The notes under the pieces: model-generated
What the model was told of the DNA's origin: nothing
The model's input: the letters and a program-made list of their open reading frames with translations, nothing else
Database searches by the model: none
Part shown: in pieces, positions 13,701 through 34,084 of the stretch
How positions within the stretch are numbered: position 1 is the first letter of the stretch
Layout of the letters: each line of letters begins with the position of its first letter
Origin: Amoebophrya sp. A120
Taxonomy: Eukaryota > Protista > Dinoflagellata
DNA length: 35,189 nt
Assembly: GCA_905178155.1 (NCBI GenBank)
Contig: CAJINV010000041.1
Span: 36,014-71,202, forward strand
Direction of reading: 5' to 3'
Translations under genes and position numbers: made by a program

Positions 13701-15580
13701 AGGAGGACAGCATGTTTTCGCTTATGATACAAAAAATGCTCTCGCGCGCAAGCGGGACTGGTACAAATGAGTCACTCACTCCTTTATTTCCCCTGCGACA
13801 TCTTCAGACTCTTTGCACCTCATGTCGCGTCTCTAAGCATCATCTGTAGCAGTGGAACTGTGCGCCAGAGCATTTTTCCGAATCACACCCTCGCGACCAT
13901 CAGCCGAGACCCGGTGCTCGCGAAGCAAGCCCTCATCCAACAGGCGGGCGAGTATCAAATGCAAAAATGTCTGGGTCTGGAAGAGCGCCACACTTGTCGT
14001 GCAGGTTTTCCATGACTAATGAGGTCTGGTATGTAGGACATAGCATGAGAAATTCTGCGAGACCTCTCTAATACCTATCCTGCATGAGAAACTGCGTCTC
14101 GATTAGGTGAAAAAAGGGCAGCTTTTGGTAATCATGCAACACAGATTTTTACATTTTTCAGATTTAGCATGACAAGTTGCATCCTTCCAGACCCAGACAT
14201 TTTTGCATTTCATAGCGAGATCGAGAAGTTGAAGTCGGAGAAAATCGCGTTGGCTATCAAGTGAAAATATGTCCTGCGGTGGAAACTTGTGATGCTAAAG
14301 TGTGGACGATGCAAGCACTTCTGGATGGAGCCAAGCATAACAACTATCCAGAACGCTTTCCTAAGTGCAGCCCGCATGACAAACTGCGTTTTTGTATGAG
14401 AAAAGAGGCTGCGGCTTTTGGCGGTCATACAATACAAATTTCACAGGCATGTCAGATCAGCATTACAACTTCGAACGTTCCAGACCCGGACATATTTGCA
14501 ATGCATATGGGCCAAAGAGCTGCAACAGCGGGTCACAGTAGCCCGGTACAAGGAATTGTGTCTATCCGAAGCACACCCGGACCTGAAGCAGGAACTGGAT
14601 ATAAGCACTGTAAATTAGGATGCTTAAAGTGCGGAAAATTGTGCCGAACTTGTCATGTTAAGTATCCTACAGTACATGACAAGTCAGTCCACCATATGTC
14701 ATGAGGATAAGCGTGGTTTTCGAATCCCAGCATCACATCTTTCCGCACCGAAGCATGCTGTTTTCCAAACCATAAGAGAAACACCGCAACGATTTTTCCA
14801 AGGGGGCGAACCACTGTGTGACCAAGCACTTCGAGGCGGCGTCGGTGTACGCCAAAAACGTCACCGGTTTTTTCCAGCACACGAACGGTGGTTGCAACTC
14901 TATCAAGTGCAAAAATGTCCGGGTCTGGAGGAATGTAACTTGTGATGCTGCGTTTGGAATCCAAAAACATCTGTATTACATGAGCAGCAAAGGGAAGGCA
15001 ACCCTTGCTACGCGGAGAGGGTATCTGTCATGCGCAATAGGCATCAAGAGGGCCTCAAAAAATCTGTGATGCTAGGGCATGCATCACAGACATCATGGCT
15101 CATGCAAAATGTGCATGACAAACTCCCCAAATCTTCCAGACCCAGACATATTTGCATTTGATAAACCCCTTCGAGGAGCAACAGTCGGACGCCGGTAGAG
15201 GAGAGACGGGAACTACCCAGCCCCCGCGGTCCGCTGCACCCCGGACGGGCGAAGCAACAGCTAGTAACGCAGGCACGCACAACTCGCTGCCGACGACCGT
15301 CTCACCCGTGCCGGCAGCAGGTACTACGCCCGCATCAAGTAGCAGCAGCAGTTCTGCCGCACCGCGAACCCTGTTACCGCCGGACACGCAAGTACGTGCC
15401 GGGGGCGCGGCAAGCTCGAGCAGTGTCGTTCCCAGAACGGCGATGGACGCCGGAGAACCATGCAACAACCCCTCCACCCAGGACTCCCTAGTAGCAACTC
15501 GCAGACAGCAATCATCTTCCCCGACGCAGGGCGCACCGCTCCGGAAGCGACGGCATACGGTCACCGGATATCGGAGGTAA
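4779..15580 (+). CDS. multi-exon hypothetical protein, paralogue 1 (S/Q/G-rich GSQPSN repeats, central helical/coiled-coil region, C-terminal RKRRHTVTGYRR)
   Basis: Exons linked across introners (e.g. NFSS|QYAGKTQTGGSQPSN; QQAGE|IEKLKSEKIAL|AKELQQ); colinear similarity to paralogue 2; several junctions unresolved, so start and single-gene status are inferred. Confidence 0.6.
5706..5907 (+). repeat. coding tandem repeat, 45-57 bp units (NVxxAQSS...GSQPS)
   Basis: aacgtg...gcgcagtctagc recurs at 5706, 5751, 5808, 5865. Confidence 0.85.
6439..6706. mobile_element. introner family A
   Basis: tatcaaatgcaaaaatatctgggtct ... agacccagacatttttgcaatgcata; DR gtccc/atccc; frame restored into another GGSQPSN motif. 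Confidence 0.92.
6803..6987 (+). other. candidate canonical GT-AG spliceosomal intron
   Basis: gg|gtaaac ... caacag|g; AT-rich, no TIR; joins GATG to LLVDRTHDEAAA in frame. Confidence 0.65.
7567..7830. repeat. 114-bp tandem repeat, about 2.3 copies
   Basis: tggcc(c/t)aa(t/c)ttgg(a/g)ccgc at 7567, 7681, 7795. Confidence 0.85.
7831..8184. repeat. 19-bp GC-rich minisatellite, 19 units (ggcggatcccc(t/g)ggggaa(c/g))
   Basis: ggatc cores from 7834 to 8176, exactly 18 x 19 bp apart. Confidence 0.95.
8509..8766. mobile_element. introner family E
   Basis: tatgcaagaaaacaagagcagttgtgtttat ... ataaacacagcccggcttattttcttggata; flanks cacag/cgaag; frame restored (GQHSKAVAPAV). Confidence 0.75.
9024..9286. 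mobile_element. introner family A
   Basis: tatcaaatgcaaatatgtttgggtctggaag ... cttcccgacccagacatatttgcaatgcata; DR decayed (gacgt/agcat). Confidence 0.88.
10002..10228. mobile_element. introner family B-like (degenerate)
   Basis: tatccttcataaaaacgctctcacgcgcgcc ... ggcgcgggtgtgggaacgtttttacccagaatg; flanks taacc/aagcc; frame continues (SITAPKVVST). Confidence 0.65.
11274..11817. mobile_element. introner family C copy with nested insertion
   Basis: tatccgagagaaaaatcccccatcccc start matches 31758/32912; end gggaatttttcttctcaata; no clear DR. Confidence 0.55.
11338..11749. mobile_element. candidate MITE with TA target duplication (Tc1/mariner-type signature), GC-rich, internal 120-bp duplication
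   Basis: TA at 11336-37 and 11750-51; imperfect TIR cacgaattgcctcggactg / cagtacgggctactctgtg; interrupts the family C motif atttg(a/c)gta|cac; ccccccggtcgcttggtcg at 11378 and 11498. Confidence 0.5.
13953..14214. mobile_element. introner family A
   Basis: near-perfect 31-bp TIR; perfect DR gcgag; frame restored. Confidence 0.95.
14255..14507. mobile_element. introner family A (diverged)
   Basis: tatcaagtgaaaatatgtcc ... ggacatatttgcaatgcata; DR ttggc/tgggc; frame restored. Confidence 0.88.
14901..15163. mobile_element. introner family A, opposite orientation to 18034
   Basis: family A TIRs; DR aactc/aaccc; interior is the reverse complement of the 18034 and 9024 interiors. Confidence 0.92.
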
Positions 15581-16094
15581 CAGAAAATGCTGGTTCATTA
15601 CTGTGGTAGATTGTAATGCGCAGAGCGGCGTGTATGACTGACTTTTGCATGCCCTGTTCGAGTTAGCATCAAAATCATCTCAGCATTACAAACTAACATT
15701 TGCGATGAAGCGGCAACGATGCTTTTCCATGTCACAGTAGATAACGATGGCGGAAAGAAGGACGGACGGTGAAGGGAGGACGCAGTGGCGCAAAAGCAAA
15801 ACCGTGTCTCATTCGATGTCAAATACATAGTAACAGTACAAAATCAGTAGTCAGTTCCAGTGTTTCAAGTTATGATTTTTTTGCTATAAATTTTACATCG
15901 CAATATAGCATTACTAACTCACGATGCGTCTTACCAGTTGGTGCACAGATAAATAAAGTATGATCTCAACAAACAGGCAAAATTTATATCTCCACGTATC
16001 CGTTTCGACAATGCAGTATAGCGACAGCACGGATGTTATTTTCTCGTTTCTTCAGGGCTAGTTACTGATAATTTACAGTTTGACGAAACTCAAG
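15581..16094 (+). repeat. 3' flank of paralogue 1, homologous to 25888-26359
   Basis: shared colinear blocks aagaaggacggacggtg, aaataaagtatgat, gtttga(c/t)gaaactcaag. Confidence 0.8.
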
Positions 16095-33400: not shown

Positions 33401-34084
33401 TGGTAAATCTGCAACACAAATCCTGAAGTTTTGGGAGTTCTTCATGATAATTTTCTATATGTAGCGCAGTGCTGCTTCGCAATGGAACAGCCGCATCACA
33501 ACAACGCCTGCTTACAGCATTACAAATCTCAGAACACAACTACAAATTCGATTCCTCTCATGCGGATGTGCATTCCAAATACCCCCGTAATTGCAAATCT
33601 GCATGACAACTATGGGGTGGGTACGTTTTTGCACAGTATAGCGCGGGTCCCATGTTTTTCGCCGAACAGTCACGGACCAGTCCCGAGCTGAAGGGAAATA
33701 ACAAATCCCTGTATCCTGAGGAAAAACGTACGCACCCCATCCCCAGCAGATCTGTCGTCAAATACCTCTGCATGCTCGGTAAGTATCGTCTCGCATGCAA
33801 AAATCAGGCTTCGAGATATCTCAATTTGATGTGACGTGCTTGCATACGCTTAAAACGACGTCGCAGCGAGTTCAGATTTGTCGGGTCAGACACCTCAAAC
33901 TTTGTAATTGTCTTATCCAGATTTTCTCTCTTGACTCTGAGGTCGTTGTGTTTTTGCCCAGGATACTCCGGCGGACATGGCTAACGAGCAGCATTTCTTC
34001 GTCCCGTCGCCGGATCTCAACCGTAAGCGATACGAGGTTCTCGATAAAAATCGAGACCAGAGTCAGGCGTGCGTGATCTTGTAG
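27433..34084 (+). CDS. kinesin-3 family motor (KLP-6/KIF28-like): motor domain, FHA domain, coiled coil, tail, C-terminal CaaX; 12 exons, 1186 aa
   Basis: Exons 27433-27493, 27755-27804, 28040-28744, 29033-29117, 29380-29447, 29732-30221, 30514-31411, 31703-31757, 32075-32911, 33227-33358, 33646-33711, 33971-34084 total 3561 nt with no internal stop; motifs [94 protein letters not shown]. Confidence 0.96.
27494..27749. mobile_element. kinesin intron 1, introner family A
   Basis: DR gaaac/gaagc; [11 protein letters not shown]. Confidence 0.93.
27805..28034. mobile_element. kinesin intron 2, introner (family C-related, diverged)
   Basis: perfect DR acgaa; tcccttcccc/ggggaggggga inverted ends; [10 protein letters not shown]. 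Confidence 0.88.
28745..29027. mobile_element. kinesin intron 3, introner family B
   Basis: tatcctgaggaaaaacgtccc ... gggacgttttcactcaggata; perfect DR cgaag; [16 protein letters not shown]. Confidence 0.96.
29118..29374. mobile_element. kinesin intron 4, introner family A
   Basis: near-perfect 28-bp TIR; perfect DR gggca; [10 protein letters not shown]. Confidence 0.96.
29448..29726. mobile_element. kinesin intron 5, introner family B
   Basis: atttgtaaaaacgtccccacacca / tggtgtggggacgtttttacaaat; perfect DR gtggc. Confidence 0.96.
30222..30508. mobile_element. kinesin intron 6, introner family B
   Basis: tatcctgagtaaaaacg ... cgtttttcctcaggata; DR ggaaa/ggata. Confidence 0.94.
31412..31697. 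mobile_element. kinesin intron 7, introner family B
   Basis: interior closely similar to intron 5; DR atgct/acgct; QRML|ALEEKL. Confidence 0.92.
31758..32069. mobile_element. kinesin intron 8, introner family C
   Basis: tatcaaaaggaaaaatcccccctccccata ... tatggggtggggggatttttcactttgata; perfect DR ttgaa. Confidence 0.96.
32912..33221. mobile_element. kinesin intron 9, introner family C
   Basis: interior closely similar to intron 8; perfect DR agcag. Confidence 0.95.
33359..33640. mobile_element. kinesin intron 10, introner family B in reverse orientation
   Basis: reverse complement of its right end (tatactgtgcaaaaacgtacccaccccatagttgtcatgcagatttgcaat) matches left ends of introns 3, 5, 6; DR gagcc/gcgcg (both encode Gly-Ala). 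Confidence 0.9.
33712..33965. mobile_element. kinesin intron 11, introner family B
   Basis: tatcctgaggaaaaacg ... tgtttttgcccaggata; DR ccctg/ctccg; removal gives last exon ending ACVIL-stop. Confidence 0.9.

What the first reader, a model, noticed from the sequence alone, without database searches (positions are those of the whole stretch)
14901..33640. The same introner family is removed in either orientation
Seen: interiors of 14901-15163 and 25226-25464 are reverse complements of 18034-18295, 9024-9286 and 6439-6706 (also visible in the ORF track: the + peptide at 14818 ...FGIQKHLYY...SKNL matches the - peptide at 18127 ...FGFQKNLYY...SKNL). Kinesin intron 10 is inverted relative to introns 3, 5 and 6. 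All host genes are on +, and the frame is restored in every case. Established: spliceosomal donor, branch-point and acceptor signals are strand-specific. Inference: the excision signal is the symmetric end sequence or hairpin, pointing to endonuclease/ligase-type or transposase-derived processing.
Basis: partly seen in the sequence, partly recalled or inferred. Interest (0 to 1): 0.88.

Follow-up and report, generated by a model that had tools for sequence, protein, structure and literature searches.

The report
Reversible introns cut by transcript direction
In a marine parasite's genome (likely Amoebophrya), transposon-like introns are cut out of the RNA whichever way round they landed, at a fixed offset set by the direction of transcription, and the few letters they must keep resemble what a loosened ordinary splicing machine would likely read.

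Summary
The inversions are real. The elements match the known non-canonical introners of Amoebophrya A120 (Farhat 2021): about 30-nt terminal inverted repeats (TIRs) and a 5-nt target duplication.

Putative RNA contigs from one sample skip copies of both orientations on one contig; kinesin intron 10 is skipped by depth arithmetic. But 25226, which has a damaged TIR, is retained, and 14901 could not be tested. Among 130 strand-called copies of one family, orientation is unbiased (68:62).

Inversion leaves the end sequences almost unchanged, and spliceosomal introners in both orientations are already published (Polarella, Aureococcus).

New here: all nine RNA joints fit one cut, 1 nt before the 5' TIR and 4 nt after the 3' TIR. 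U+2, A+3 and A-7 are held nearly invariant in transcript direction while their mirror positions vary (Fisher p=0.002, small counts). This argues against a symmetric or transposase-type cutter. It favours a relaxed spliceosome branching at A-7 (about 0.55) over a euglenid-like non-spliceosomal system (about 0.33). The scan noted position-set acceptors in another genome before.

The parts
14901..15163 (+). Family A introner, orientation 'a'; predicted intron 14900-15167; TSD AACTC/AACCC; removal not tested on RNA
18034..18295 (+). Family A introner, orientation 'b' (inverse of 14901); perfect 5-nt TSD; joint not displayed
9024..9286 (+). Family A introner, orientation 'b'; not tested on RNA
6439..6706 (+). 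Family A introner, orientation 'b'; not tested on RNA
13953..14214 (+). Family A introner, orientation 'b'; not tested on RNA
14255..14507 (+). Family A introner, orientation 'b'; not tested on RNA
18342..18599 (+). Family A introner, orientation 'a'
22156..22329 (+). Non-canonical intron (AT-AC), exact -1/+4 cut, read from a contig's loose end
22694..22875 (+). Non-canonical intron (GT-CG), unambiguous -1/+4 cut; flanks show a 4-nt repeat only
22990..23209 (+). Family A intron, orientation 'a', skipped in 4 of 4 runs
23371..23529 (+). Canonical GT-AG intron skipped on the same contig (shows the contigs behave as mRNA)
23693..23972 (+). Family A intron, orientation 'a', skipped in 4 of 4 runs
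24039..24302 (+). Family A intron, orientation 'b', skipped in 4 of 4 runs on the same contig as 23693-23972
24410..24683 (+). Non-canonical intron, skipped
25226..25464 (+). Family A copy, orientation 'a', ~20-nt deletion in the 3' TIR and 8-nt deletion at the 5' TIR; retained in the RNA contigs
25484..25767 (+). Non-canonical intron, skipped
25875..26057 (+). Old non-canonical intron (CT-AC), unambiguous -1/+4 cut, weak stem, no TSD left
27433..34084 (+). Kinesin gene (motor, FHA, KIF1B domains; 1186 aa after removing 11 introners)
27493..27753 (+).
28744..29031 (+).
29117..29378 (+).
29447..29730 (+).
30221..30512 (+). Kinesin intron 6, family B; adjacent contig pieces show the joint
31411..31701 (+).
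33358..33644 (+).

Best explanation
These are transposon-derived introns with inverted-repeat ends that are removed from the RNA in either orientation at a fixed offset (1 nt before the 5' repeat, 4 nt after the 3' repeat), most likely by a relaxed spliceosome that would read N-U-A as donor and a predicted branch adenosine 7 nt from the 3' end. Shown: both orientations occur and are skipped in RNA contigs; intron length is element + 5 nt; the cut register; the directional constraint on U+2, A+3 and A-7. Inferred: insertion as a non-autonomous DNA transposon (5-nt duplication); the repeat hairpin juxtaposes the ends and helps set the spacing. Untested: the spliceosome, the lariat and the branch itself. 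Orientation does not matter because each repeat, read in transcript direction, supplies the same TAT...ATA motif.
For: Register: 9 of 9 non-canonical RNA joints allow -1/+4, it is the only offset common to all, and 3 are unambiguous.

Directional constraint: in 233 strand-called metagenome copies (of 266), variants number 1 at +2/+3 against 9 at the mirror -5/-6, and 5 at +4 against 0 at the mirror -7 (Fisher p=0.002). The 16 RNA-supported window introns agree: all keep U+2, A+3 and A-7, and vary at +4 (3), -6 (2) and -5 (1).

Identity rather than pairing: T>C at +4 and -6 makes A.C mismatches and is tolerated, while wobble-making A>G at +3 and -7 is absent in the metagenome set. The stems show no G.U over A.C excess (156 vs 177).

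Genome-wide support: in Farhat Table S4 all 9 leading A120 motifs are NT-NN and all 9 A25 motifs are TT-NN.

Spliceosome precedent: U+2 pairs with U6 A51, and the branch A is central to both steps. Giardia spliceosomal introns have a [G/C]TATGT donor and a fused branch-acceptor motif (its A at -8 is my count). Amoebophrya keeps 83 of 89 spliceosomal proteins and U2/U4/U6. Fritillaria MITE-derived non-canonical introns are attributed to the U2 spliceosome.
Against: No lariat, branch or inhibitor data. No U2-type consensus precedes A-7: TIR positions 4, 5 and 7 vary freely. A-7 is predicted to be paired inside a stable stem in many copies. G+1 (75 of 253) and terminal AG (17 of 253) are not enriched, although G+1/G-1 and A-2/branch-A pairs select the yeast acceptor. 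U1 snRNA was not found in either strain.

The asymmetry rests on 15-26 variants. It was noticed first and then retested on the same data. Across six detection settings p ran from 0.0007 to 0.26 for all calls and from 0.005 to 0.33 for strict calls. Strand calls are predicted (5 conflicts against 146-159 agreements at the middle settings).

Euglena's presumed non-spliceosomal introns also use an asymmetric ruler with required end letters. 25226 keeps all three letters yet is retained, so the letters are not sufficient. One window copy (21531) has G at the -7 position; its joint was not seen.
Confidence: 0.55

Rival explanations
1. A dedicated non-spliceosomal system like that of euglenids: a protein nuclease and ligase dock on the base of the TIR hairpin, read U+2, A+3 and A-7 base-specifically, cut with a 3-nt stagger and would release a circle.
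For: Euglena's code 5'-N3CDG...CH'G N5-6 has the same shape (short 5' spacer, longer 3' spacer), with tested spacer lengths and circular products. Here G+1 and AG are free, there is no U2 consensus, and U1 is missing. The one retained copy has the weakest stem of the family A copies folded (duplex -11.8 vs -17.5 to -46.9 kcal/mol).
Against: The three held letters are those the spliceosome core needs (the role of +3 is recalled). Intron 25875-26057 is cut exactly with a weaker stem (-8.3). There is no G.U excess in the stems. No candidate enzyme was identified; no genome was held to search.
Confidence: 0.33
2. One reading: the symmetric end or hairpin is cut by a two-fold symmetric or transposase-derived enzyme.
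For: No orientation bias: 68:62 (p=0.66), strict 39:31. TIRs and a 5-nt TSD in 118 of 150 copies.
Against: Mirror positions of the two TIRs are under different constraint. The offset is -1/+4 and is not flipped in the opposite-orientation pair. Farhat et al. found no transposase in A120. Spliceosomal introners also work in both orientations.
Confidence: 0.06
3. The elements are self-splicing RNAs, or are removed from the DNA, or are assembly artefacts.
For: Strong predicted folds.
Against: Interiors work in both orientations and differ between families, which a ribozyme fold would not allow. Run X5 gives even-depth contigs that read straight through the elements (19537-23026, 25415-27901), so they are in the DNA, while X1-X4 skip them together with a GT-AG intron. 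The same family with intact TSDs is in an independent assembly.
Confidence: 0.04

Closest known systems
Introner elements / non-canonical introns of Amoebophrya sp. A120 (Farhat et al. 2021, PMC7789003)
   Same: TIR begins TAT + 7 variable nt + A-run; direct repeats; about 240-300 nt; families; non-GT-AG ends. Six of the nine leading A120 end-types occur among the window introns under -1/+4.
   Different: In the text read, the paper calls the splice sites variable relative to the hairpin, sees no clear end signature, and does not address element orientation. The fixed -1/+4 cut, the U+2/A+3/A-7 constraint and the orientation counts are added here. Its figures were not visible.
Either-orientation introners of Polarella glacialis (classes 1, 2, 3, 6, 7, 8, 10) and Aureococcus (bioRxiv 2020.10.14.339549; Huff 2016 second-hand)
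   Same: TIR/TSD DNA-transposon introns made in either orientation.
   Different: They need GT/GC/GA donors and AG acceptors from the element or TSD and show orientation bias. Here first and last letters are free and there is no bias.
Nonconventional introns of euglenids (PMC12501133, PMC11282704)
   Same: MITE-like; terminal pairing; free end dinucleotides; fixed spacers, longer on the 3' side.
   Different: The motif is CAG/CTG at +4 and -8 with a purine at the exon start and circular products; here TA(Y) at +2 and A at -7, product unknown. Unrelated lineage.
Non-canonical introns of Fritillaria borealis (PMC13326754; Henriet 2019 second-hand)
   Same: MITE-derived non-GT-AG introns in bulk, attributed to a modified U2 spliceosome.
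   Different: They have preferred ends (AG-AC, AG-AT), keep U1 and duplicate U2AF; here the ends are NT-NN and U1 was not found.

Membership tests
Amoebophrya A120-type introner elements | TIR starting TAT, 7 variable nt, then at least 3 A | tested here: met
Amoebophrya A120-type introner elements | Direct repeat of 3-5 nt at the boundaries | tested here: met
   perfect 5-nt TSD in 118 of 150 family A copies
Amoebophrya A120-type introner elements | Repeated family, removed from mRNA, non-GT-AG ends | tested here: met
   25226 is an exception
Amoebophrya A120-type introner elements | Host is Amoebophrya A120 | tested here: inconclusive
   inferred from the TIR signature and co-oriented genes; no genome held
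U2 spliceosomal introns | G+1 and terminal AG | tested here: not met
   GT..AG in 6 of 253; G+1 75; AG 17
U2 spliceosomal introns | U+2 (and purine +3) at the donor | tested here: met
U2 spliceosomal introns | Branch-point adenosine in a U2-pairing motif | tested here: inconclusive
   A-7 nearly invariant, no consensus around it
U2 spliceosomal introns | Lariat product, snRNP dependence | not testable with these tools
   only contigs held the locus; raw reads X8 did not cover it
Euglenid nonconventional introns | 5'-N3CDG ... CH'G N5-6 | R code | tested here: not met
   ends are N-TAY ... ATA-N4
Euglenid nonconventional introns | Terminal pairing with asymmetric spacers | tested here: met
   (pairing predicted only)
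Euglenid nonconventional introns | Circular excised intron | not testable with these tools
   no back-joint, but contigs drop rare forms
tRNA/archaeal endonuclease-ligase introns | Bulge-helix-bulge with a paired central helix (recalled definition) | tested here: not met
   the two TSD copies are direct repeats; 140 of 253 TSDs have no self-complementary position and only 10 have four

The most novel reading that the evidence does not exclude
Amoebophrya has a splicing system with no need for G+1, AG or U1, which needs only U+2, A+3 and A-7 on a hairpin. Any TAT...ATA transposon becomes a clean intron in either orientation. The system is either a spliceosome stripped to its catalytic contacts or a second, independent origin of euglenid-like non-spliceosomal mRNA splicing.
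Probability: 0.6. Interest if true: 0.85.

Novelty: new variant of a known kind. Interest (0 to 1): 0.6.

Why it matters
How Amoebophrya removes tens of thousands of introns that lack GT-AG has been open since 2021. A fixed cut and three direction-specific letters turn that into single-nucleotide predictions: a branch at A-7, tolerance of any first and last letters, and no orientation effect. They also give an exact rule for annotating these genes. If the spliceosome does it, it shows how few intron letters the catalytic core needs. If not, it is a second eukaryotic lineage with protein-based mRNA splicing. The either-orientation fact alone is expected for inverted-repeat elements and does not decide the mechanism.

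Tried and rejected
No own genome was held and the metagenome records could not be extended, so there is no genome-wide count and no U2/U6 or nuclease search.

The 2026 raw RNA run X8 covered only repeat ends in 3 of 30 bins. No listed holder is on record as RNA; X1-X4 are treated as RNA because they skip a GT-AG intron.

In one search the joint table was swamped by repeat copies, so piece coordinates were used. One joint row (23723>25253, X2 only, extra letters between) links two repeat copies and was dropped.

The G.U vs A.C test gave no asymmetry. Ab initio prediction of canonical introns, to ask whether they share A-7, returned noise with no donor signal (65 candidates) and is inconclusive.

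My first boundaries for 24411, 24040 and kinesin intron 2 were off and were corrected. 19535 was left out of the RNA set because the contig resumes at 19819, which does not fit its boundaries.

Rejected: TSD lengths other than 5; removal of element +2 or +8, which also keep frame but not the RNA lengths. Huff 2016 was not held. Figures of PMC7789003 (Fig. 3, S19-S25) and bioRxiv supplements were not visible and may already show the register.
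Full report
What the elements are. The window holds about 30 inserts of 170-310 nt that begin TAT/TAC and end ATA-like, with terminal inverted repeats (TIRs) of about 30 nt. This matches the description of Amoebophrya A120 introner elements: TAT, seven variable letters, then an A-run (PMC7789003 section 11). The organism is therefore inferred, not shown. Eleven inserts interrupt a kinesin gene on + (Pfam Kinesin, FHA, KIF1B). Removing each element plus 5 nt gives 1186 aa; retaining any one of introns 1-10 shortens it, and retaining intron 11 changes its end.

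The observation. With TIRs trimmed away, 14901 and 25226 match 18034, 9024 and 6439 only as reverse complements, and kinesin intron 10 matches 3, 5 and 6 only as a reverse complement (null maximum 29). From these and the window I delimited 150 family A copies, 118 with a perfect 5-nt duplication. With five hand-added window copies, the 155 interiors form one signed graph of 4177 edges with no inconsistency. Host strand was called by a codon model per locus and per junction; the two calls agreed in 70 of 70 cases where both were made. Orientation relative to the host was 68:62 in 130 called copies (25 uncalled; p=0.66) and 39:31 in the strict set. Three other families gave 24:25, 15:8 and 10:8. 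These are insertions in predicted coding DNA; they were not checked on RNA.

RNA evidence. Four runs of one sample, guessed to be RNA and kept as contigs, were laid on 22250-26100. All four skip 23693-23972 and 24039-24302 on the same contig, and these two family A copies are in opposite orientation. They also skip a GT-AG intron. In the kinesin contig the distances between pieces equal element + 5 nt for introns 1-8 (153, 52 and 46 nt left over). Intron 10 was not displayed as a joint. But 776 nt of contig remain after 32906 with only 132 nt of exon before intron 10, and the bin depth is 5.57 against 4.99 expected if skipped and 13.1 if kept (X2: 3.82 against 3.17 and 8.34). So it is skipped by inference. 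It has lost about 20 nt of its 3' TIR and 8 nt at its 5' TIR, and same-orientation copies are skipped, so damage rather than orientation is the likely cause; contigs can drop a rarer spliced form. Run X5 reads straight through the elements at even depth, so they are in the DNA.

The cut. Where the duplication has decayed, the joint fixes the cut. Nine joints were tested: seven from the table, one from a loose end and one from adjacent pieces. All allow an intron that starts 1 nt before the TIR and ends 4 nt after it; no other offset fits all; three are exact. At 22694-22875 and 25875-26057 the rule holds although no 5-nt duplication remains, so the ruler is the element end, not the duplication. 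For 23694 the flipped offset (-4/+1) is excluded. The intron thus always reads N-T-A-Y ... A-T-A-N-N-N-N. Farhat's Table S4 fits: all nine leading A120 end-types are NT-NN, and all nine A25 types are TT-NN.

Direction-specific letters. The two TIR ends are mirror images in DNA, so a symmetric cutter predicts equal constraint on them. I detected elements of all families with a filter symmetric for the two ends. In 233 strand-called metagenome copies the variants were: -5 A>G 5, -6 T>C 3, -6 T>G 1, +4 T>C 5, +3 A>T 1 (probably mis-registered), +2 none, -7 none (Fisher p=0.002). Both A>G and T>C occur on the sense strand at tolerated places, so strand-biased mutation does not explain it. A.C-forming changes are tolerated at +4 and -6, while G.U-forming changes at +3 and -7 are missing, so base identity matters more than pairing at the tip. 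Limits: small counts, a post-hoc test, and p from 0.0007 to 0.26 across six settings. First and last letters are free (G+1 75 of 253, AG 17 of 253), and the stem has no G.U excess.

Mechanism. Inversion does not change the terminal 30 nt of the intron RNA, so orientation independence excludes only interior signals. Introners with near-canonical sites work in either orientation in Polarella and Aureococcus. The letters that are held, U+2, A+3 and an A near the 3' end, are those a spliceosome core would use: U+2 pairs with U6 A51 and the branch A anchors both steps (the +3 contact is recalled). Giardia shows a C/G-TATGT donor and a fused branch-acceptor. I therefore commit to a relaxed, possibly U1-free spliceosome branching at A-7 (0.55), close to Farhat's own guess of a modified spliceosome. 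The main rival is a euglenid-like system (0.33): Euglena uses fixed, unequal spacers and required end letters with unknown machinery, and nothing here resembles a U2-pairing motif. A symmetric or transposase-type cutter is unlikely (0.06).

Novelty. The elements and their odd ends are known. Searches for the orientation, register or branch point of Amoebophrya introners found no paper on them. In Farhat's text the 'orientation' passages shown concern gene blocks (12 of 15 places shown; 2 of 3 in the supplement), and the figures were not visible. An earlier scan note (e1-7135795) reports a position-set acceptor after a hairpin in another genome; I did not check it.

What I read. PMC7789003: abstract, sections 10, 11, 12, 16, passages, supplement passages and part 3 of 5. 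PMC9860276: passages and section 7. PMC11282704: passages and section 6. PMC12501133: abstract, passages, sections 7 and 8. PMC13326754: abstract, passages, section 30. Passages only: bioRxiv 2020.10.14.339549, PMC12130899, PMC10711314, PMC10228655, PMC11453091, bioRxiv 212811 and bioRxiv 2022.06.08.495308. Huff 2016 and Henriet 2019 only second-hand.

Verdict. This is a new variant of a known kind; interest 0.6, carried by the cut rule and the branch prediction rather than by the inversion itself.

Noticed in passing
window 15723-15861 vs 26040-26184; 5735-5870 vs 17229-17369: The regions ~4.7-16 kb and ~16.6-26 kb share diverged sequence and similar C-termini (…RKRRHT[V/I]TGYR[R/K]), suggesting an old tandem duplication. 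The intron at 25875 seems to have a counterpart near 15569.
   Followed up: partly
window 19535-19818: RNA contigs resume at 19819, 4 nt after an ATA at 19812-19814, not after the family A copy 19535-19799. This copy may be nested inside an older, larger intron.
   Followed up: no
window 22694-22875: Flanks show a 4-nt repeat, yet element + 5 nt is removed, so one exon base may be lost relative to the pre-insertion state. Fixed-ruler splicing could speed protein change.
   Followed up: partly
window 25226-25464: Retention gives a stop at 25279-25281 and would cut off the basic C-terminal motif that the paralogous region keeps.
   Followed up: partly
window 17087-17806 and 5693-5905: 60-nt and 57-nt coding tandem repeats (Q/S/G-rich, QPSN motif) in the two putative paralogues.
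   Followed up: no
window 7774-8248 and 10429-10443: A 19-nt tandem array, and a short TTTAGGG telomere-like run inside the window.
   Followed up: no
family A, B and C interiors: Different families share short internal words such as TTTGTCATGC / TTTGTGATGC at several places on both strands; possibly transposase or chromatin binding sites.
   Followed up: no
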